DNA of 40,168 nt, taken from sequence record OZ035748.1; one strand, given 5' to 3'. The stretch comes from Przondovirus KP32i192. Position 1 is the first letter of the stretch. Every line of letters begins with the position of its first letter. The position numbers and the translations under genes are program-made. Shown here one piece after another: positions 831 to 8,567 of the stretch. A model generated the notes under the pieces. The model made no database searches. It worked only from the letters and a program-made list of their open reading frames with translations, and had not been told where the DNA came from.

Positions 831-2584
831 GTAACTCTCAGCAAGCCAAGAACGCCTTAATCATTGCGCAACTGAAGGGTGACTTTGTCGCCTTTCTCTT
901 CGTGCTCTGGAAGGCCCTGAACCTGCCGGAACCAACCAAGTGTCAAATCGACATGGCCAAGTGCCTGGCGAACCCAAAGAACAAGAAGTTTATCCTTCAG
1001 GCTTTCCGTGGTATCGGGAAGTCATTCATCACGTGTGCGTTCGTAGTGTGGACCCTTTGGCGTGACCCTCAGTTAAAGATACTGATTGTCTCAGCCTCAA
1101 AGGAACGTGCGGACGCTAACTCCATCTTCATCAAGAACATCATCGACTTGTTGCCTTTCCTGAGTGAGCTTAAGCCTCGCCCCGGTCAGCGTGACTCCGT
1201 GATTAGCTTTGATGTAGGCCCTGCCAAGCCGGACCACAGCCCGTCAGTTAAGTCTGTGGGTATTACGGGTCAGCTTACTGGTAGCCGTGCCGATATCATC
1301 ATTGCGGATGACGTGGAGATTCCCGGTAACTCTGCGACTCAAGGTGCTCGTGAGAAACTCTGGACGCTGGTTCAGGAGTTCGCTGCACTGTTGAAACCCC
1401 TGCCGACTAGCCGTGTTATCTATCTGGGTACCCCTCAGACCGAGATGACGCTCTACAAGGAACTTGAGGACAACCGTGGGTACTCCACCATCATTTGGCC
1501 TGCGCAGTATCCTCGCTCCAAAGAGGAAGACCTGTACTATGGCGACCGACTGGCACCGATGCTCCGCAGTGAGTACGATGAGGACAAAGAGGGTCTCAGC
1601 AGCCAACCTACCGACCCGGTTCGATTCGACTCCATGGACCTTCAGGAGCGTGAGGTGGAATACGGTAAGGCTGGCTACACGCTTCAGTTCATGCTCAACC
1701 CGAACCTTAGTGACGCCGAGAAGTATCCTCTACGCCTCCGTGACGCTATCGTGTGCGGTCTACAGATGGACAAGGCCCCAATGCATTACCAGTGGTTGCC
1801 GAATCGTCAGAACCGCAATGAGGAGCTTCCTAACGTGGGCATGAAGGGTGACGAGATTTACTCATTCCATACGGCATCCAGTAACACTGGTACGTATCAG
1901 GGTAAGATTCTGGTCATCGACCCAAGTGGTCGCGGTAAGGATGAGACTGGCTGGTGCGTACTGTACACCCTCAACGGCTACATCTACCTGATGGACGCTG
2001 GCGGCACTCGCGGTTACGAAGAGAAGTCCCTTGAGTTCCTCGCTAAGAAAGCAAAACAGTGGCAGGTTCAGACTGTGGTCTTCGAGAGTAACTTCGGTGA
2101 CGGTATGTTCGGTAACGTCTTCCAGCCTGTGCTCCTGAAGCATCACCCAGCGCAGCTCGAAGAGATTCGTGCTCGTGGTATGAAAGAGGTACGTATCTGC
2201 GATACCCTTGAGCCTGTACTGGCAAGTCACCGCTTGGTCATCCGCGATGAGGTAATCCGACAGGACTACCAGACGGCACGGGACGCAGACGGTAAGCACG
2301 CTCTGAAGTACAGCCTGTTCTACCAGATGACCCGTATGAGCCGTGAGAAGGGTGCTGTGGCACACGATGACCGACTTGATGCATTAGCATTGGGTGTCGA
2401 GTTCCTACGCTCTACGATGCAGCAGGACGCTGTGAAGATAGAGGCTGAGGTACTTCAGGAGTTCTTGGAGCACCACATGGAGAAGCCCCTGAGTAACATC
2501 TCCCAGTTCCGGGTCACCAGTAGCAACGGTGTGGACATCCGATGGGAAGACGACGGGGACGACTCTATGTTCATCGCATGGTGA
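827..2584 (+). CDS. Terminase large subunit / DNA maturation protein B (T7 gp19-like), TTG start
   Basis: 585-aa ORF collinear with recalled T7 gp19 ([25 protein letters not shown], ATPase and nuclease blocks); start is TTG 6 nt after aaggagg. Confidence 0.9.
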
Positions 2585-2664
2585 TTATGCAAGGATTGTG
2601 CATAAGGATTCATTAGGCCACGGAAGGCCACTTTGAGGAAACTCCATGTATAACAGACACTTGG

Positions 2665-2687
2665 AATTAGGGCACACTATAGGGAGA
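2665..2687 (+). promoter_or_regulatory. Phage RNAP promoter (phiOR-like, right end)
   Basis: AATTAGGGCACACTATAGGGAGA, full match to the window consensus; +1 G at 2682. Confidence 0.75.
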
Positions 2688-2828
2688 GACCCTTGAAGAC
2701 TTACTATAAGACAACTTAAAGATTCATTCATATAGTTATTCACTTTAAGTCTCCTTAAAGGTAGAGGGTAGTGATGATAATATCACCCTCTCACTACAAG
2801 ACACTAAGAGCCAACATAAGGAGGACCT

Positions 2829-2978
2829 ATGCGCTTATTGTTAACCTTACTGCGCCATAGGACTACTTGGCGATTTCTGCTGGTACTTGCTGGTGCCCTT
2901 GGGGCTTCACTGGTTACTCAGCAGCAACTCAGTGGACTGGAGACTCTCGTGTGCTCTCTACTCACTTGTAGCGATTAG
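2829..2978 (+). CDS. Small hydrophobic protein (gp19.5-like by position)
   Basis: 49-aa ORF with aaggagg RBS 8 nt upstream; hydrophobic; lies between terminase gene and genome end as gene 19.5 does in T7. Confidence 0.4.
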   Translation: MRLLLTLLRHRTTWRFLLVLAGALGASLVTQQQLSGLETLVCSLLTCSD

Positions 2979-3039
2979 GGTCTTCCTGACGCGCTAGGGA
3001 TTCCGTAGTGATGCTTATCAGCATACACCACTCCATCCC

Positions 3040-3440
3040 TCTATAGTCAATACTTAAAGTTAACCTTAGGTGATTCACTGGGTCTACCTACGGGTCTATG
3101 CACTGACCTGAGGACTACCTGAGGTTACCTTTAAGAATTTTACATAAAGTTCTGAGTGTACATCTCACAGTTTACACTTTTGGTCATCCCCCCCGGTACC
3201 CCTCCAGTTCACCCAAAGTAACCATGGGTACCCCCCTCTTTACCTTCAGTTTAACCTTGGGTGGTACCTTGGGAGTCCTTAGGTGATACTATATGTTGTG
3301 GTGTGGGTGACCTGAGGATACTATATGTTGATGTCTCTGTGTCCCTATCTGTTGGCCCTCTTTAAGTATCCACTGAGTACCACCTGAGGTTAGACCTGAG
3401 GTAATACCGGAGACCATATACCTTAGGTTAACCATGCGGC
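3040..3440. repeat. Array of short CCT(T/G)(A/G)GG heptamer repeats flanking the terminal-repeat region
   Basis: At least 9 copies of ccttagg / cctgagg / ccttggg, plus a 20-bp imperfect direct repeat (ccttaggtgatactatatgttg at 3277-3298, cctgaggatactatatgttg at 3311-3330); analogous to the short repeats near T7 genome ends. Confidence 0.5.
3163..3350. repeat. Putative direct terminal repeat (single collapsed copy) with predicted physical left end near 3163
   Basis: TCTCACAG at 3163-3170 matches the recalled T7 left-end sequence; TCTCTGTGTCCCTATCTGTT at about 3334-3353 matches the conserved block near the inner edge of the T7 terminal repeat; boundaries inferred. Confidence 0.35.
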
Positions 3441-3492
3441 CATCTGGTGAGTCATCACTATAGGGCTATTGGTGGTCATTGTCAATCAATCC

Positions 3493-3515
3493 TATTAGGA
3501 CACACTATAGGGAGA
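3493..3515 (+). promoter_or_regulatory. Phage RNAP promoter (phiOL-like, left end)
   Basis: TATTAGGACACACTATAGGGAGA; +1 G at 3510. Confidence 0.65.
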
Positions 3516-3594
3516 CACTTAAAGTATTACTTAGGGACCATCACCATAAAGATCACCATCACTATAGGTCTAACTAAAAGTTTAACTTTAAGTG

Positions 3595-3623
3595 TTGACA
3601 TTCAGATTCCGTTATGAGACATT
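3595..3623 (+). promoter_or_regulatory. Candidate host sigma70 early promoter (A1-like)
   Basis: -35 TTGACA (3595-3600), 17-bp spacer, weak -10 GACATT (3618-3623); position and flanks resemble T7 A1. Confidence 0.35.
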
Positions 3624-3726
3624 AGCAACCGTTGAGAGACACAACGCTACCAACCACTAGCATACTTCGAGTTATCTGGTTAGACTGATGGTCTCAAGTA
3701 GTCATCAACCGGACATACGAAAGTGG

Positions 3727-3755
3727 TTGACTCAACGATGAATAAGTAGTAAGAT
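3727..3755 (+). promoter_or_regulatory. Host sigma70 early promoter (A2-like)
   Basis: -35 TTGACT (3727-3732), 17-bp spacer, -10 TAAGAT (3750-3755); same hexamers as recalled T7 A2. Confidence 0.55.
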
Positions 3756-3854
3756 GCACCACAGATTCACGAAGTACCGCTAGGCAACTAGCATTGCTCT
3801 TTAACAATATGGATTAGTCAAGCTGATATGTACACCATGATAATAGTGTTTAAC

Positions 3855-3925
3855 TAGTGGTTACATTCAGGTCTCTGGCAAGGTACGTCCTGTCACCCTG
3901 AGAGTAGCCACAATGATAACCACTA
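3855..3925 (+). promoter_or_regulatory. Candidate long-range stem-loop in gene 0.3 leader (R0.3-like)
   Basis: TAGTGGTTA (3855-3863) is perfectly complementary to TAACCACTA (3917-3925), 9-bp stem enclosing 53 nt, immediately upstream of the gene 0.3 RBS. Confidence 0.3.
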
Positions 3926-3946
3926 ATCAACTGAAGGATATACATT

Positions 3947-4414
3947 ATGATTTTCACGAAAGAACCAGCCAACAAAGTATTCGTATTTGTTACTGCATAC
4001 CGTGGCCATGAGTCGCAGGAAGTAAACGAGAAGATGCTCAAGGGTCTCATTAAGACCATTCGCACCTATCCGGGAGCATACGGCAACATTCGTGATGAAC
4101 ATGTACAGGGCTGCTTTAAAGAAGCTGGTATGCCTGAGGCAACGCAAGAGCGCACGCTTAAAGTTGAGTGTACTGAGAAGCAAGCCGCAGAGTTGACGTG
4201 GCTGGCCTGTAAGACCTACTCGCAAGATGCTGTGCTGGTGGTGAACTCACAGACCCATACAGCCGCGCTATGGTCTATCACAAGCGTGGGAGAGTATCCG
4301 CAAGCATTTCCGATGCTCAAAGAGGATGCACTAGGTGGCACGCTGCAACAAGTGGACGCACCAAAGGGCGAATGCTATTCAAGCATCGACGGGCAATACT
4401 GGGAGGTGGTCTAA
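3947..4414 (+). CDS. SAM hydrolase/lyase (T3 gp0.3-like SAMase), anti-restriction
   Basis: 155-aa first early gene; N-terminus MIFTKEPA..VFVFV and overall collinearity with recalled T3 SAMase; not Ocr-like (not acidic). Confidence 0.7.
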   Translation: MIFTKEPANKVFVFVTAYRGHESQEVNEKMLKGLIKTIRTYPGAYGNIRDEHVQGCFKEAGMPEATQERTLKVECTEKQAAELTWLACKTYSQDAVLVVNSQTHTAALWSITSVGEYPQAFPMLKEDALGGTLQQVDAPKGECYSSIDGQYWEVV

Positions 4415-4560
4415 TGATTAATTATGGCCTCACTCAGGCAGACATTAGGCATTACCGCTGGTTGCTCTCACTAGGTAAACCGCACGACTACCTAATGATT
4501 CACCTAGCGCAAACCTACCGCACACGTAAGGTAATGTATGATAACCCTGTTCGTAATTAG
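4414..4560 (+). CDS. Hypothetical early protein (48 aa)
   Basis: ATG overlaps SAMase stop (TAATG); gggagg RBS 7 nt upstream; position of T7 genes 0.4-0.6. Confidence 0.4.
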   Translation: MINYGLTQADIRHYRWLLSLGKPHDYLMIHLAQTYRTRKVMYDNPVRN

Positions 4561-4735
4561 TGTGTACGCCATGATTGTCCTGTACTTTGTGCGGGACTTT
4601 CGTAAGGGTCTCAAGGTACACAAGGCATCATTCAGTTACATGAAGTGGGGCATACTGCCTCGCTTTACTGTACGGCTACCAAATGGCCGCTTTAAGGCTA
4701 ACAAGGTAGGTATTTTCTACATCGCAACCCATTGA
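4538..4735 (+). CDS. Hypothetical early small membrane protein (65 aa)
   Basis: ORF with aagg RBS; N-terminal hydrophobic segment ITLFVISVYAMIVLYFV. Confidence 0.4.
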   Translation: MITLFVISVYAMIVLYFVRDFRKGLKVHKASFSYMKWGILPRFTVRLPNGRFKANKVGIFYIATH

Positions 4736-4760
4736 CAAACCACCATAAGGAAACAACCTA

Positions 4761-5777
4761 ATGAACTACACCGACATGCAAGAACGCTTAGACGTCATCC
4801 GTAACCTGCCAATCTGTGAACTCGACAAGCGCCAGCCGCTGCTGGTAGCACTCATCGCGGACATTGTGAACTGCGAGACGTCCGATGGTGACGACACGGA
4901 TAGCGATTGGGGTCTGGAGCGACAGGACTACTGGCAAACCCTGAAGATTAAGGCCAAAGACGCTGGGTTTAACCTGCTGGGCAATGGACACTTCAGCGCA
5001 GCGTTTAAGCACGAGCTGCTACCGGGTAGGGTCATTAAGGTTGGCTTTAAGAAAGAGGATTCAGGGGCCGCATACGTGGCTTTCTGCCGGATGCACCAAG
5101 GCCGGGCAGGCATCCCTAACGTCTATCACGTAGCGCGTCACGCTGGGTGCTATACGGTGGTACTTGATGAGTTGGAACCATGCAAGCGCAGCAGTAACCA
5201 CTTGCACGACCACTACGCAGACCTCGCGTATTATTTTGTCGAGTGTGACTATGAGCCTGAGGAGCACCACGAGAAGGACTTACCGTTCATTGAGACGTGC
5301 CAGATGATTCGGGACTTCTTCTGTGGGATTGCATCCTTCGATATGCACAGCGGTAACATCATGTTCACCAAAGACGGCAAGCCAGTGATTACCGACCCGG
5401 TGTCATTCTCGGCGGACCGGGACCGTGAGCCTTTCTCACTGGAACCTGAGGAGCTACTTGCTGAGATTGAGCAGATAGCGCACGACAAGATGATTGAACG
5501 CTGCAAGCGCAACAAGGCTAAGCGTGACCCGAACGGAGCGCTGCGCATCGCACGGCGTAAGGCCAATAAGGAGCGTCGAGCACGCCGTAAGGCGCACGCT
5601 AGGTGGCGTAAGGAGCGTGAACGTGAACGTGAGCAGTATCACGTAGACGCCCTAAAGTTAGACCTAGCGAGTGTCGAGGAGCGCATTCTGGCGTGGCAAA
5701 TGGGTCCCGGCCTAGCGATACAAATGGGCAAGCCGTTGCCAATCGACAACTACCTTCAGGGTAGACTTATGGGTTAG
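4761..5777 (+). CDS. Serine/threonine protein kinase and host transcription shutoff protein (T7 gp0.7-like)
   Basis: 338-aa ORF; long identical blocks with recalled T7 gp0.7 (LPICELDKRQ, GNGHFSAA, RVIKVGFKKEDSGAAY, GIASFDMHSGNIMF). Confidence 0.85.
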   Translation: MNYTDMQERLDVIRNLPICELDKRQPLLVALIADIVNCETSDGDDTDSDWGLERQDYWQTLKIKAKDAGFNLLGNGHFSAAFKHELLPGRVIKVGFKKEDSGAAYVAFCRMHQGRAGIPNVYHVARHAGCYTVVLDELEPCKRSSNHLHDHYADLAYYFVECDYEPEEHHEKDLPFIETCQMIRDFFCGIASFDMHSGNIMFTKDGKPVITDPVSFSADRDREPFSLEPEELLAEIEQIAHDKMIERCKRNKAKRDPNGALRIARRKANKERRARRKAHARWRKEREREREQYHVDALKLDLASVEERILAWQMGPGLAIQMGKPLPIDNYLQGRLMG

Positions 5778-5791
5778 CAAGGTGTATCTTA

Positions 5792-5813
5792 GGTGTCTCC
5801 CGCAAGAGGCACC
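5792..5813 (+). promoter_or_regulatory. RNA hairpin in gene 1 leader (candidate R1 processing site)
   Basis: GGTGTCTC ccgcaa GAGGCACC: 8-bp stem (one G-U), 6-nt loop, no following U-tract so not an intrinsic terminator. Confidence 0.3.
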
Positions 5814-5846
5814 GATAGATAAACTTTATTCACAAAGAGGCACACA

Positions 5847-8567
5847 ATGAACGCATTAAACATTGCACGTAATGACTTCTCAGAGATTGAACTGGCCGCT
5901 ATTCCGTACAACATCCTCAGCGAGCACTACGGGGACAAGCTGGCACGTGAGCAGTTAGCACTGGAGCATGAGGCGTACGAGCTGGGTGAGCAGCGTTTCC
6001 TGAAGATGTTAGAACGTCAGGTGAAAGCTGGAGAGTTCGCTGACAACGTGGCCGCTAAGCCGCTGGTCCTAACGTTGCACCCGCAGCTGACCAAGCGCAT
6101 TGACGATTGGAAGGAGGAACAAGCAAACGCTCGTGGTAAGAAGCCTCGCGCATACTACCCGATTAAGCACGGCGTGTCCTCAGAGCTGGCCCTCAGTATG
6201 GGCGCTGAGGTACTCAATGAGAAGCGCGGAGTGTCCAGTGAGGCAATCGCACTGCTGACCATTAAGGTCGTCTTAGGGACGCTCACAGACGCCTCCAAGG
6301 CAACCATCCAGCAGGTATCCTCTCAGTTAGGCAAGGCTCTTGAGGATGAGGCCCGCTTTGGTCGTATCCGTGAGCAGGAAGCCGCCTACTTCAAGAAGAA
6401 CGTAGCGGACCAGCTGGACAAGCGTGTAGGCCACGTGTACAAGAAGGCTTTCATGCAGGTCGTCGAGGCCGATATGATTTCCAAAGGGATGCTGGGTGGG
6501 GACAACTGGTCCAGCTGGAAAACTGACGAGCAGATGCATGTGGGGACCAAGCTGCTTGAGCTACTCATCGAGGGCACTGGTCTGGTGGAAATGACCAAGA
6601 ACAAGATGGCCGATGGCTCCGACGATGTGACCAGTATGCAGATGGTCCAGCTGGCTCCGGCCTTTGTGGAACTCCTGAGCAAACGAGCGGGAGCACTCGC
6701 AGGTATCAGCCCGATGCACCAACCATGCGTAGTCCCTCCGAAACCTTGGGTGGAGACCGTAGGCGGTGGCTACTGGTCAGTCGGTCGCCGCCCGCTGGCG
6801 CTGGTTCGTACCCACTCCAAGAAGGCACTGCGCCGCTACGCAGACGTGCACATGCCCGAGGTATACAAAGCGGTAAACCTCGCGCAAAACACGCCGTGGA
6901 AGGTGAACAAGAAGGTGCTGGCGGTAGTCAACGAGATTGTCAACTGGAAGCACTGCCCGGTTGCTGACGTCCCGGCGATTGAACGCGAAGAGTTACCACC
7001 ACGCCCGGACGATATCGACACCAACGAGGTGTCACGCAAGGCATGGCGCAAGGAGGCCGCAGCGGTCTACCGTAAGGACAAGGCCCGCCAGTCTCGCCGT
7101 TTGTCAATGGAGTTCATGGTCGCACAGGCCAACAAGTTCGCTAACCACAAGGCCATCTGGTTCCCGTACAACATGGACTGGCGCGGACGTGTGTACGCTG
7201 TGAGCATGTTCAACCCGCAGGGTAACGACATGACCAAGGGTATGCTGACGCTGGCCAAGGGTAAGCCAATCGGTCTCGACGGGTTCTACTGGCTGAAGAT
7301 TCACGGTGCAAACTGTGCAGGCGTCGACAAGGTTCCATTCCCTGAGCGCATCAAGTTCATCGAAGAGAACGAGGGTAACATTCTGGCGAGCGCAGCAGAC
7401 CCGCTGAATAACATTTGGTGGACACAGCAAGATTCACCGTTCTGTTTCTTGGCGTTCTGCTTTGAGTACGCAGGCGTTAAACATCATGGCCTGAATTACA
7501 ACTGCTCGCTGCCGCTGGCATTCGATGGGTCATGCTCTGGGATTCAGCACTTCAGCGCGATGCTCCGCGATTCCATCGGTGGTCGTGCGGTTAACCTGCT
7601 GCCTTCTGATACTGTGCAGGATATCTACAAGATTGTGGCCGACAAGGTTAACGAGGTGCTTCACCAGCACGCTGTCAACGGGTCTCAGACGGTGGTCGAG
7701 CAGATTGCTGATAAAGAGACTGGCGAGTTCCGCGAGAAAGTAACACTGGGTGAGTCCGTGCTGGCTGCTCAGTGGTTGCAATATGGCGTGACCCGTAAGG
7801 TGACTAAGCGTTCGGTCATGACGTTGGCGTACGGTTCCAAAGAGTTCGGCTTCCGCCAGCAAGTTCTGGAAGACACCATTCAGCCTGCTATTGACAATGG
7901 CGAGGGCTTGATGTTTACGCACCCTAACCAAGCGGCTGGCTACATGGCTAAGCTGATTTGGGACGCTGTGACCGTGACCGTAGTGGCCGCTGTCGAGGCA
8001 ATGAACTGGCTGAAGTCTGCCGCTAAGCTGCTGGCTGCTGAAGTCAAGGACAAGAAGACCAAAGAGGTGCTGCGTAAGCGCTGCGCAATCCACTGGGTAA
8101 CACCCGATGGCTTCCCGGTGTGGCAGGAGTACCGCAAGCAGAACCAAGCGCGCCTGAAGCTGGTCTTCCTCGGGCAGGCCAACGTCAAGATGACGTATAA
8201 CACTGGGAAGGACTCAGAGATTGATGCCCACAAGCAGGAATCCGGCATAGCTCCTAACTTTGTTCACTCACAGGACGGTAGTCACCTACGCATGACCGTA
8301 GTACACGCCAACGAGGTCTACGGGATTGACTCCTTCGCACTCATTCACGACTCCTTCGGGACCATTCCGGCTGACGCTGGGAATCTCTTTAAGGCAGTCC
8401 GTGAGACGATGGTCAAGACCTACGAGGACAACGATGTGATCGCTGACTTCTACGACCAGTTCGCTGACCAGCTGCACGAGTCTCAACTGGACAAGATGCC
8501 AGCTGTTCCGGCCAAAGGTGACCTGAATCTGCGAGACATCTTGAAGTCAGACTTCGCGTTTGCGTAA
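5847..8567 (+). CDS. Single-subunit DNA-dependent RNA polymerase (T7 gp1-like)
   Basis: 906-aa ORF; collinear with recalled T7 RNAP along the full length, including the active-site region (LPLAFDGSCSGIQHFSAMLRD) and C-terminal FAFA. Confidence 0.95.
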   Translation: MNALNIARNDFSEIELAAIPYNILSEHYGDKLAREQLALEHEAYELGEQRFLKMLERQVKAGEFADNVAAKPLVLTLHPQLTKRIDDWKEEQANARGKKPRAYYPIKHGVSSELALSMGAEVLNEKRGVSSEAIALLTIKVVLGTLTDASKATIQQVSSQLGKALEDEARFGRIREQEAAYFKKNVADQLDKRVGHVYKKAFMQVVEADMISKGMLGGDNWSSWKTDEQMHVGTKLLELLIEGTGLVEMTKNKMADGSDDVTSMQMVQLAPAFVELLSKRAGALAGISPMHQPCVVPPKPWVETVGGGYWSVGRRPLALVRTHSKKALRRYADVHMPEVYKAVNLAQNTPWKVNKKVLAVVNEIVNWKHCPVADVPAIEREELPPRPDDIDTNEVSRKAWRKEAAAVYRKDKARQSRRLSMEFMVAQANKFANHKAIWFPYNMDWRGRVYAVSMFNPQGNDMTKGMLTLAKGKPIGLDGFYWLKIHGANCAGVDKVPFPERIKFIEENEGNILASAADPLNNIWWTQQDSPFCFLAFCFEYAGVKHHGLNYNCSLPLAFDGSCSGIQHFSAMLRDSIGGRAVNLLPSDTVQDIYKIVADKVNEVLHQHAVNGSQTVVEQIADKETGEFREKVTLGESVLAAQWLQYGVTRKVTKRSVMTLAYGSKEFGFRQQVLEDTIQPAIDNGEGLMFTHPNQAAGYMAKLIWDAVTVTVVAAVEAMNWLKSAAKLLAAEVKDKKTKEVLRKRCAIHWVTPDGFPVWQEYRKQNQARLKLVFLGQANVKMTYNTGKDSEIDAHKQESGIAPNFVHSQDGSHLRMTVVHANEVYGIDSFALIHDSFGTIPADAGNLFKAVRETMVKTYEDNDVIADFYDQFADQLHESQLDKMPAVPAKGDLNLRDILKSDFAFA

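What the first reader, a model, noticed from the sequence alone, without database searches (positions are those of the whole stretch)
3947..4414. Gene 0.3 encodes a T3-type SAM-degrading enzyme rather than an Ocr DNA mimic
The first early gene product (155 aa, N-terminus MIFTKEPA) resembles the T3 SAMase as I recall it and is not acidic like T7 Ocr. By established knowledge T3 SAMase removes S-adenosylmethionine and blocks type I restriction-modification, so this phage likely uses that anti-restriction strategy.
Basis: partly seen in the sequence, partly recalled or inferred. Interest (0 to 1): 0.45.

Follow-up and report, generated by a model that had tools for sequence, protein, structure and literature searches.

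The report
T3-type SAM lyase early gene

Summary
The ORF exists exactly as described (3947..4414, +, 155 aa, MIFTKEPAN…). It belongs to the S-adenosylmethionine lyase family: Pfam PF23780 scores 125 bits against a cut-off of 28. It matches the solved T3 SAMase (7OCK/8BB1) at E=3e-26 and about 40% identity. A confident AlphaFold model (pLDDT 88) superposes on the T3 SAM lyase chain of 8BB1 with TM 0.84/0.88. The SAM-binding residues are present: G55, an aromatic at 57 (Phe here, Tyr in T3), E68, Q93 and D94. So are both T3 elements that bind the host SAM synthase MetK: the N-terminal tail MIFTKxxAN and the loop Q102-T103-H104-T105. The protein is only mildly acidic (pI 5.2), and nothing in the window resembles Ocr. 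The window is a circularly permuted Przondovirus genome, about 97% identical to KP32 isolate 192. The gene sits where T3/T7 gene 0.3 sits, behind σ70-like promoters and a leader hairpin. dN/dS is 0.10–0.17. Many records mislabel it "SAM-dependent methyltransferase". Activity is inferred, not shown. Verdict: correct, ordinary, already known.

The parts
3595..3623 (+). Candidate host-RNA-polymerase (sigma-70 type) early promoter: TTGACA, 17 nt, GACATT
   Evidence: Read from the sequence. Conserved in the four Klebsiella phages aligned. Corresponds approximately to the promoter annotated at 575-603 in KpV763. The -10 hexamer is weak (3 of 6), so the scan did not list it. Function is inferred.
3727..3755 (+). 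Candidate sigma-70 type early promoter: TTGACT, 17 nt, TAAGAT
   Evidence: Found by the consensus scan. The -35 region is invariant in all five phages aligned, including the Erwinia phage. Corresponds approximately to the promoter annotated at 709-737 in KpV763. I recall TAAGAT as the -10 of T7 promoter A2; that is memory, not a tool result.
3815..3844 (+). Third candidate sigma-70 type promoter: TAGTCA, 18 nt, GATAAT
   Evidence: Found by the consensus scan. Conserved in three of the four Klebsiella phages aligned, counting the window; two of them read GACAAT at -10, and KA1-1 lacks the -35. This is the weakest of the three, and the scan found only slightly more sites than shuffles give (6 against 4.2).
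3857..3911 (+). 55-nt leader hairpin with internal loops, just upstream of the ribosome-binding site; candidate RNase III processing site like T7 R0.3
   Evidence: MFE -26.8 kcal/mol, z=-4.56, 0 of 200 shuffles fold as well. The same fold occurs in KA1-1 and H5, whose two substitutions each give G-U pairs. The Erwinia phage has an imperfect hairpin of different sequence at the same place. No Rfam family matches. The RNase III role is an analogy from knowledge of T7 and T3.
3934..3938 (+). Shine-Dalgarno sequence AAGGA, 8 nt before the ATG
   Evidence: Read from the sequence. AGGAT is invariant in all five phages aligned.
3947..4414 (+). Coding sequence of the T3-type S-adenosylmethionine lyase (gene 0.3 equivalent), 155 aa plus stop
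   Evidence: ORF. PF23780 at 125 bits against a cut-off of 28. PHROG 2226. PDB 7OCK/8BB1 at E=3e-26, and E=3e-45 with the family profile. Model pLDDT 87.9, TM 0.84/0.88 to 8bb1_E. dN/dS 0.10-0.17.
3947..3973 (+). Codons 1-9 (MIFTKEPAN): N-terminal tail that contacts MetK in the T3 complex
   Evidence: Identical to T3 residues 1-9. The preprint lists T3 M1, I2, F3, T4, K5, A8 and N9 as MetK contacts. This tail occurs only in the T3-like subset of the family. AlphaFold confidence is low here (residues 1-3 below 50), as expected for a tail that orders on a partner.
4109..4117 (+). Codons 55-57 (G-C-F): Gly that packs against the ribose, and the aromatic that stacks on the SAM sulfonium (Tyr57 in T3, Tyr58 in Svi3-3)
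   Evidence: Alignment to T3. Roles from PMC7877911. Across 42 family sequences, G is present in 39 and an aromatic in 39 (Y 27, F 9, W 3).
4148..4150 (+). Codon 68 (Glu): key SAM-binding residue, equal to T3 E68 and Svi3-3 E69
   Evidence: Invariant in 38 close relatives and present in 40 of 42 family sequences. Svi3-3 E69Q/A lose 1500- to 4500-fold activity, and T3 E68Q loses about 5-fold.
4223..4228 (+). Codons 93-94 (Gln-Asp): equal to T3 Q94-D95 and Svi3-3 Q104-E105
   Evidence: Q in 41 of 42 and D/E in 40 of 42 family sequences. T3 Q94A loses about 5-fold activity, and E68Q/Q94A is inactive.
4250..4261 (+). Codons 102-105 (Q-T-H-T): beta4-beta5 loop that hydrogen-bonds to MetK in the T3 complex (T3 Q103, T104, H105, T106)
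   Evidence: Identical to T3. At least 90% conserved among close relatives. Present only in the family members that also have the N-terminal tail. Roles from the preprint.

Best explanation
This is the gene 0.3 equivalent of a KP32-like Klebsiella phage (genus Przondovirus). It encodes a T3-type S-adenosylmethionine lyase. Shown here: the gene is intact and under purifying selection; it belongs by sequence and predicted fold to the SAM lyase family; it keeps the SAM-binding residues and both MetK-contact elements of T3 SAMase; and it sits at the first-gene position. Inferred: host RNA polymerase transcribes it from two or three sigma-70 type promoters as the DNA enters the cell. The transcript is probably processed at a leader hairpin, and the protein is made first. 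The enzyme holds SAM through E68, Q93, D94, G55 and the aromatic F57, so that the substrate's own carboxylate attacks its gamma-carbon. The products are 5'-methylthioadenosine and homoserine lactone. Through its N-terminal tail and the QTHT loop it also binds the host SAM synthase MetK, which blocks resupply of SAM and stabilises the phage protein. The resulting fall in SAM disables defences that need it, namely type I restriction-modification and BREX, so the unmodified phage genome survives.
For: Family: PF23780 at 125.3 bits against a cut-off of 28, covering profile positions 1-132 of 133. T3 SAMase chains of 7OCK/8BB1 match at E=3e-26 over residues 1-153, and at E=3e-45 with the family profile. 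Fold: model pLDDT 87.9 and pTM 0.81; Foldseek's best hit is 8bb1_E at TM 0.84/0.88, and the next distinct protein is Svi3-3 SAM lyase, 6zm9. Residues: G55, F57 (aromatic), E68, Q93 and D94 are present and conserved across 42 family sequences; their roles come from PMC7877911 and the T3 preprint. MetK elements: residues 1-9 and Q102-T105 are identical to T3 and co-occur only in the T3-like subset. Position and expression: orthologous to kpv763_01, with conserved promoter hexamers, leader hairpin and ribosome-binding site. Selection: dN/dS 0.10-0.17. No Ocr is present. T3 SAMase depleted SAM when expressed in K. pneumoniae (PMC12456054), so the strategy can work in this host genus.
Against: No activity has been measured for this protein or, as far as my searches show, for any KP32-type ortholog. 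Identity to T3 is only about 40%. The Tyr that stacks on the sulfonium is Phe here, and Svi3-3 Y58F lost 5-fold activity and destabilised the trimer. A 7-residue insertion (PQAFPML, residues 118-124) lies in a beta-hairpin whose role is unknown. I did not retrieve Klebsiella MetK, and the host-side interface residues do vary among other Enterobacterales. Deleted or frameshifted copies exist in sequenced relatives, so the gene is dispensable in culture.
Confidence: 0.88

Rival explanations
1. The protein is mainly or only a MetK-binding inhibitor. Its lyase activity is weak or lost, because Tyr57 is Phe and Glu67 is Gln.
For: The Y-to-F and E-to-Q differences from T3. Svi3-3 Y58F is 5-fold less active. 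A catalytically dead T3 E68Q/Q94A mutant keeps partial anti-BREX activity through MetK binding. An in-frame deletion variant, P0023, keeps the tail and the QTHT loop but lacks the catalytic core.
Against: E68, Q93, D94 and G55 are all retained and under strong conservation. Phe occurs at position 57 in 9 of 42 family sequences and Trp in 3, so the aromatic ring rather than the hydroxyl is what is conserved. The calculations in PMC7877911 found the Tyr proton relay unnecessary. T3 E67Q behaves like wild type. A binder-only protein would not need to keep the whole SAM pocket.
Confidence: 0.06
2. The enzyme's main substrate is a SAM-derived signal such as SAM-AMP, which would make it an anti-type III CRISPR enzyme rather than a SAM-pool depleter.
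For: A CRISPR-associated SAM lyase homolog from Clostridium botulinum degrades SAM-AMP better than SAM. The authors suggest that mobile-element lyases could act as anti-CRISPRs (PMC10600005).
Against: This protein belongs to the T3 subfamily, whose SAM cleavage and MetK binding are experimentally shown, and MetK binding only makes sense for depleting the SAM pool. I know of no evidence that CorA-type type III systems are common in Klebsiella; that statement is from my own knowledge and was not tested.
Confidence: 0.03
3. It is a SAM-dependent methyltransferase, as many GenBank records and PHROG 2226 label it.
For: The label appears on PHROG 2226 and on many phage records, including the closest relative, phi1_146052.
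Against: No methyltransferase domain appears in Pfam even at E<=1. The predicted fold is the T3 SAM lyase beta-barrel, and no methyltransferase is among the 50 Foldseek matches listed. The label is a propagated naming error for the same family that Pfam calls S-AdoMet_lyase.
Confidence: 0.01
4. It is an Ocr-like DNA mimic that blocks type I enzymes directly.
For: It occupies the same genomic position as T7 gene 0.3, and the protein is mildly acidic (net -5).
Against: It is 13% acidic against 29% for Ocr, and tblastn with Ocr finds nothing (best E=3.2). Its fold and family are those of SAM lyase.
Confidence: 0.01

Closest known systems
Bacteriophage T3 gp0.3 SAM lyase (SAMase; UniProt P07693; PDB 7OCK, 8BB1)
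   Same: Same Pfam family, same predicted fold (TM 0.84/0.88), same first-gene position behind host-type promoters, and an identical N-terminal MetK tail (residues 1-9) and QTHT loop. E68, Q93/94, D94/95 and G55 are the same.
   Different: About 40% identity overall. Phe replaces Tyr57 and Gln replaces Glu67. A 7-residue insertion lies at 118-124. It is 155 aa, against 152 aa for T3 as I recall it (the PDB alignment shows T3 residues 1-151). pI is 5.2, against 8.2 for the 150 T3 residues shown in the PDB alignment. The host is Klebsiella or Raoultella rather than E. coli. It has not been tested biochemically.
Svi3-3 SAM lyase from an environmental phage (PDB 6ZM9, 6ZNB, 6ZMG)
   Same: Same reaction chemistry is expected. 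The equivalents of Gly56, the aromatic at 58, Glu69, Gln104 and Glu105 are present. It is the next distinct protein after T3 in the fold search.
   Different: Only 12-13% identity and TM about 0.4. Svi3-3 is a trimer with active sites between subunits, and it lacks the MetK-binding tail and loop.
The other SAM lyase allele found in Przondovirus (for example Klebsiella phage H5, gene H5_01, 150 aa)
   Same: Same locus and same flanking DNA (91% identical upstream, 96% downstream). Same family, with MIYTKEPAN at the N-terminus.
   Different: 45% protein identity to this one and 43% to T3. The DNA of the gene body (window 3974-4342) is unalignable.
T7 Ocr (gp0.3), a DNA-mimic inhibitor of type I R-M and BREX
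   Same: Same genomic slot and the same biological targets (type I R-M and BREX), according to PMC11680406.
   Different: Unrelated in sequence, charge and mechanism: Ocr is a DNA mimic, this is a metabolite-destroying enzyme.
CRISPR-associated SAM-AMP lyase of Clostridium botulinum
   Same: A predicted SAM lyase relative that releases MTA.
   Different: It is encoded by the host, prefers SAM-AMP, and acts as an off-switch for type III CRISPR signalling. I did not compare it directly here.

Membership tests
S-adenosylmethionine lyase family (Pfam PF23780) | Significant full-length match to the curated family profile | tested here: met
   125.3 bits against the gathering cut-off of 28, E=2e-36, profile positions 1-132 of 133. 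The family profile hits T3 SAMase at E=3e-45.
S-adenosylmethionine lyase family (Pfam PF23780) | T3 SAMase fold: antiparallel beta-barrel with two external helices | tested here: met
   AlphaFold model with pLDDT 87.9, eight DSSP strands (one long) and two main helices. TM 0.84/0.88 to 8bb1_E at E=6e-14. The structure is predicted, not solved.
S-adenosylmethionine lyase family (Pfam PF23780) | SAM-binding residues: Gly (T3 G55), aromatic (Y57), Glu (E68), Gln (Q94), acidic (D95) | tested here: met
   G55, F57, E68, Q93 and D94 are present. Family-wide counts are G 39/42, aromatic 39/42 (Y 27, F 9, W 3), E 40/42, Q 41/42 and D/E 40/42. The Tyr-to-Phe change is a natural variant, not a loss of the feature.
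S-adenosylmethionine lyase family (Pfam PF23780) | Cleaves SAM to 5'-methylthioadenosine and homoserine lactone | not testable with these tools
   Needs a biochemical assay. I found no paper reporting one for a KP32-type protein.
T3-type (MetK-binding) subfamily of SAM lyases | N-terminal tail contacts (T3 M1, I2, F3, T4, K5, A8, N9) and beta4-beta5 loop (Q103, T104, H105, T106) | tested here: met
   All eleven residues are identical to T3. The two elements co-occur in 16-18 of 42 family sequences and are absent together in the rest.
T3-type (MetK-binding) subfamily of SAM lyases | Physically binds and inhibits the host SAM synthase MetK | not testable with these tools
   Needs pull-down and activity assays with Klebsiella MetK.
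T3-type (MetK-binding) subfamily of SAM lyases | Host MetK carries the enteric-specific interface residues (D132, V133, I178, I211, A214 and a Trp) | tested here: inconclusive
In other Enterobacterales, V133, I178 and W216 are kept, but I211V, A214T/P and D132E occur. The papers' 'Trp26' does not fit the numbering of the PDB chain, where residue 26 is Ala.
T3-type (MetK-binding) subfamily of SAM lyases | First gene at the genome's left end, transcribed by host RNA polymerase | tested here: met
   Orthologous to kpv763_01 at 919-1386 of KpV763. Sigma-70 type hexamers are conserved upstream. Transcription itself is inferred.
Ocr DNA-mimic family (T7 gp0.3) | Sequence similarity to Ocr and very high density of acidic residues | tested here: not met
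   tblastn best E=3.2. The protein is 13% D+E against 29% for Ocr, and no ORF of 50 aa or more in the window exceeds 21.4%. The Ocr query sequence was recalled from memory.
SAM-dependent methyltransferases (the label attached to PHROG 2226) | Methyltransferase domain or fold | tested here: not met
   PF23780 is the only Pfam hit at E<=1. No methyltransferase is among the 50 Foldseek matches listed.

The most novel reading that the evidence does not exclude
The KP32-type SAM lyase may be a functionally distinct lineage rather than a plain copy of the T3 enzyme. It carries Phe at the sulfonium-stacking position and a 7-residue insertion. It is one of at least two alleles, 45% identical to each other, that replace one another inside nearly identical flanking DNA in Przondovirus genomes. 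That pattern could reflect an arms race, either with variable host MetK surfaces or with host systems that sense SAM lyase or SAM depletion. If so, the alleles would differ in which hosts or defences they neutralise.
Probability: 0.15. Interest if true: 0.45.

Novelty: already known. Interest (0 to 1): 0.13.

Why it matters
The gene indicates that this phage probably disarms SAM-dependent defences (type I restriction-modification and BREX), which bears on host range when choosing Klebsiella therapy phages. The practical gain is a correction of annotation. Many public records call this protein a "SAM-dependent methyltransferase" or a "hydrolase", and NCBIfam has no model for it, so pipelines mislabel or miss a counter-defence gene. 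The finding itself adds nothing new to biology.

Tried and rejected
NCBIfam gave no hit for the protein. An Rfam scan of 2500-6000 at E<=1 gave only a chance snoRNA match, so the leader hairpin belongs to no curated family. Pfam found nothing for the two small downstream ORFs or for the ORF at the 0.7 kinase position at E<=0.01. The single genome-contig scan with E. coli MetK was meant to fetch Klebsiella MetK. I considered and rejected a minus-strand ORF overlapping the gene (3923..4225, 100 aa), because the plus-strand frame carries the family hit and low dN/dS. I also rejected the methyltransferase and Ocr readings (see the rival explanations). The leader hairpin has no compensatory double substitutions among the close relatives, only two G-U-compatible single changes, so the comparative support for it is weak.

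Full report
**Observation.** AAGGA at 3934-3938 lies 8 nt before the ATG. The product has 20 acidic and 15 basic residues (net -5, pI 5.23, 13% D+E). T7 Ocr, recalled from memory, is 29% D+E. "Not acidic like Ocr" is therefore fair, although the protein is mildly acidic, whereas the 150 T3 residues shown in the PDB alignment give pI 8.2.

**What the window is.** The region matches 382 phage records, 365 of them Klebsiella phages of the KP32 group, genus Przondovirus. A 24-kb stretch of the window is about 97% identical to Raoultella phage vB_Rp_P25a and to KP32 isolate 192. The window is a circular permutation of the genome. A terminase-size ORF ends at 2584, and position 1 of the KpV763 record aligns to window 3163. 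In KpV763 the ortholog is the first annotated gene (kpv763_01, 919-1386), after the terminal repeat and two annotated promoters. That is the gene 0.3 position of T3 and T7, so "first early gene" is confirmed by synteny.

**Family membership.**
- Pfam gives one hit, PF23780 S-AdoMet_lyase, at 125.3 bits against a cut-off of 28, covering nearly the whole profile.
- PHROGs gives phrog_2226 at E=1e-47. Its attached name, "SAM-dependent methyltransferase", is wrong for this family.
- Among solved structures, the only real hit is T3 SAMase in 7OCK and 8BB1: E=3e-26 over residues 1-153 at about 40% identity, rising to E=3e-45 with a profile of 37 relatives.
- An AlphaFold model built on that alignment is confident (pLDDT 87.9, pTM 0.81). 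It shows a beta-barrel with two helices, matching the description of T3 SAMase in PMC8406200.
- Foldseek places the T3 SAM lyase chain of 8BB1 first (TM 0.84/0.88, E=6e-14). The next distinct protein is Svi3-3 SAM lyase. No methyltransferase is among the matches listed.

**Defining residues.** PMC7877911 shows that these enzymes are lyases. The substrate's own carboxylate attacks its gamma-carbon, giving 5'-methylthioadenosine and homoserine lactone. The enzyme positions the substrate with Gly56, Tyr58, Glu69, Gln104 and Glu105 in Svi3-3 numbering. E69Q/A abolish activity, and Y58F and E105Q reduce it 5-fold and 3-fold. In T3 the equivalents are G55, Y57, E68, Q94 and D95. E68Q and Q94A each lose about 5-fold activity, the double mutant is dead, and E67Q is like wild type.

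The window protein has G55, F57, Q67, E68, Q93 and D94. The one notable change is Tyr to Phe at position 57. To judge it, I searched 1.84 billion representative proteins with the family profile. The family is small: 99 representatives at E<=1e-3 and 15 at E<=1e-30. I then aligned the window protein, T3 and 40 representatives to the profile, 42 sequences in all:

| Position (window numbering) | Conservation across 42 sequences |
|---|---|
| G55 | 39 of 42 |
| Aromatic at 57 | 39 of 42 (Y 27, F 9, W 3) |
| E68 | 40 of 42 |
| Q93 | 41 of 42 |
| D or E at 94 | 40 of 42 |

Phe is therefore a normal variant. This fits the cation-pi role of the ring and the paper's finding that the Tyr proton relay is not required.

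**The second function.** T3 SAMase also binds and inhibits the host SAM synthase MetK (PMC8406200; bioRxiv 10.1101/2023.02.27.530186). Contacts come from M1, I2, F3, T4, K5, A8 and N9 of the N-terminal tail and from Q103, T104 and T106 of the beta4-beta5 loop, with H105 stabilising the tail. The T4A mutant keeps catalysis but weakens MetK binding and anti-BREX activity. All eleven residues are identical in the window protein, at positions 1-9 and Q102-T105. In the family table the tail and the loop occur together in 16-18 of 42 sequences and are absent together in the rest. This protein therefore belongs to the MetK-binding subfamily.

I could not check the host side. In other Enterobacterales the interface positions I211, A214 and D132 do vary. 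T3 SAMase expressed in K. pneumoniae did behave as a SAM depleter (PMC12456054).

**Expression signals.** Upstream lie three sigma-70 type promoter candidates:
- 3595-3623: TTGACA, 17 nt, GACATT.
- 3727-3755: TTGACT, 17 nt, TAAGAT.
- 3815-3844: TAGTCA, 18 nt, GATAAT.

All three are conserved to varying degrees among relatives, and the first two match annotated promoters in KpV763. A 55-nt hairpin at 3857-3911 is far more stable than shuffled sequence (z=-4.56, 0 of 200 shuffles). The Erwinia phage has a counterpart of different sequence at the same position. By analogy with T7 and T3 this is probably an RNase III site, but there is no compensatory covariation and no Rfam match.

**Is the gene functional?** dN/dS against KpV763 and KA1-1 is 0.105 and 0.165, so the protein is under purifying selection. 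Public data nevertheless contain damaged copies: fusions to the downstream small protein, an in-frame internal deletion, a frameshift, and a truncated copy in phage PCCM_KpP253. The gene is therefore dispensable in culture, as expected for a counter-defence gene. The copy in this window is intact.

**Rivals.**
- A binder-only protein is unlikely, because the whole SAM pocket is conserved.
- The methyltransferase label and the Ocr reading are refuted.
- A SAM-AMP-specific role, as shown for a CRISPR-associated homolog (PMC10600005), cannot be excluded as an extra activity. It does not explain the conserved MetK elements.

**Novelty.** The gene is annotated as "S-adenosyl-L-methionine hydrolase" in many Przondovirus records. 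Papers on Klebsiella phages already cite it as an anti-restriction element. The closest public protein is 99.4% identical (phi1_146052). No biochemical study of the KP32-type enzyme turned up in my searches. The finding is correct and ordinary.

**One point of mild interest.** Phage H5 shares 91% identical DNA upstream (3446-3973) and 96% downstream (from 4738), yet the gene body (3974-4342) is unalignable. Its protein is 45% identical to this one and 43% to T3. Two deep alleles therefore swap within one conserved locus.

Noticed in passing
window 3974-4342, compared with L004 (Klebsiella phage H5): The body of the SAM lyase gene is unalignable with phage H5, although the flanks are 91% identical (3446-3973) and 96% identical (from 4738). 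H5's protein is 45% identical to this one and 43% to T3. Two deep alleles occupy the same conserved locus within one phage genus. The upstream breakpoint lies just after the codons for the MetK-binding tail.
   Followed up: partly
proteins P0013, P0023, P0034, P0043, P0046; L086:1501-1725 (phage PCCM_KpP253): Public data contain damaged versions of this gene. They include deletions fusing its N-terminus to the downstream small protein, an in-frame deletion of about residues 40-91 between two 'KTY' motifs, a frameshift, a chimera with a foreign N-terminus, and a 74-aa remnant. The gene is evidently dispensable during propagation.
   Followed up: partly
window 4414-4560 (+): A 48-aa ORF (MINYGLTQADIRHYRWLLSLGKPHDYLMIHLAQTYRTRKVMYDNPVRN) starts at the ATG of TAATG, overlapping the SAM lyase stop codon by one base, which suggests translational coupling. 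It is annotated as hypothetical in relatives. The local Pfam copy has no hit, but the precomputed domain PF26807 on the fusion proteins probably belongs to it. A second small ORF, 4538-4735 (65 aa), overlaps its end.
   Followed up: partly
public annotation of orthologs: PHROG 2226 carries the name 'SAM-dependent methyltransferase', and this error is propagated to many phage records, including the closest relative. NCBIfam has no model for the family, so other records say 'hypothetical protein'.
   Followed up: yes
L005-L084 (MetK loci); E. coli MetK numbering: The MetK residues that were mutated to break T3 SAMase binding vary within Enterobacterales: I211V in most, A214 to T or P, and D132E in some. 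Both T3 papers list 'Trp26', but residue 26 of the E. coli MetK chain in 8BB1 is Ala. W216, next to I211 and A214, is probably meant.
   Followed up: partly
window 4761-5777 (+): The 338-aa ORF at the gene 0.7 position is annotated as a serine/threonine kinase in relatives but has no Pfam hit at E<=0.01. Its dN/dS against KpV763 is 0.06.
   Followed up: no
window 2668-2690 and 3500-3520 (+): Two phage-RNA-polymerase-type promoter-like sequences (…TAGGGCACACTATAGGGAGA and …TAGGACACACTATAGGGAGA) lie in the genome-end region, between the terminase gene and the early promoters. I recognised them by eye and from memory of K11/KP32-type promoters.
   Followed up: no
window 4414-4760, compared with L085 (phi1_146052) and L001 (KpV763): The number of small ORFs between the SAM lyase and the kinase differs among close relatives: four are annotated in phi1_146052, three in KpV763, and I see two here. 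The early region is a hotspot for gain and loss of small genes.
   Followed up: no
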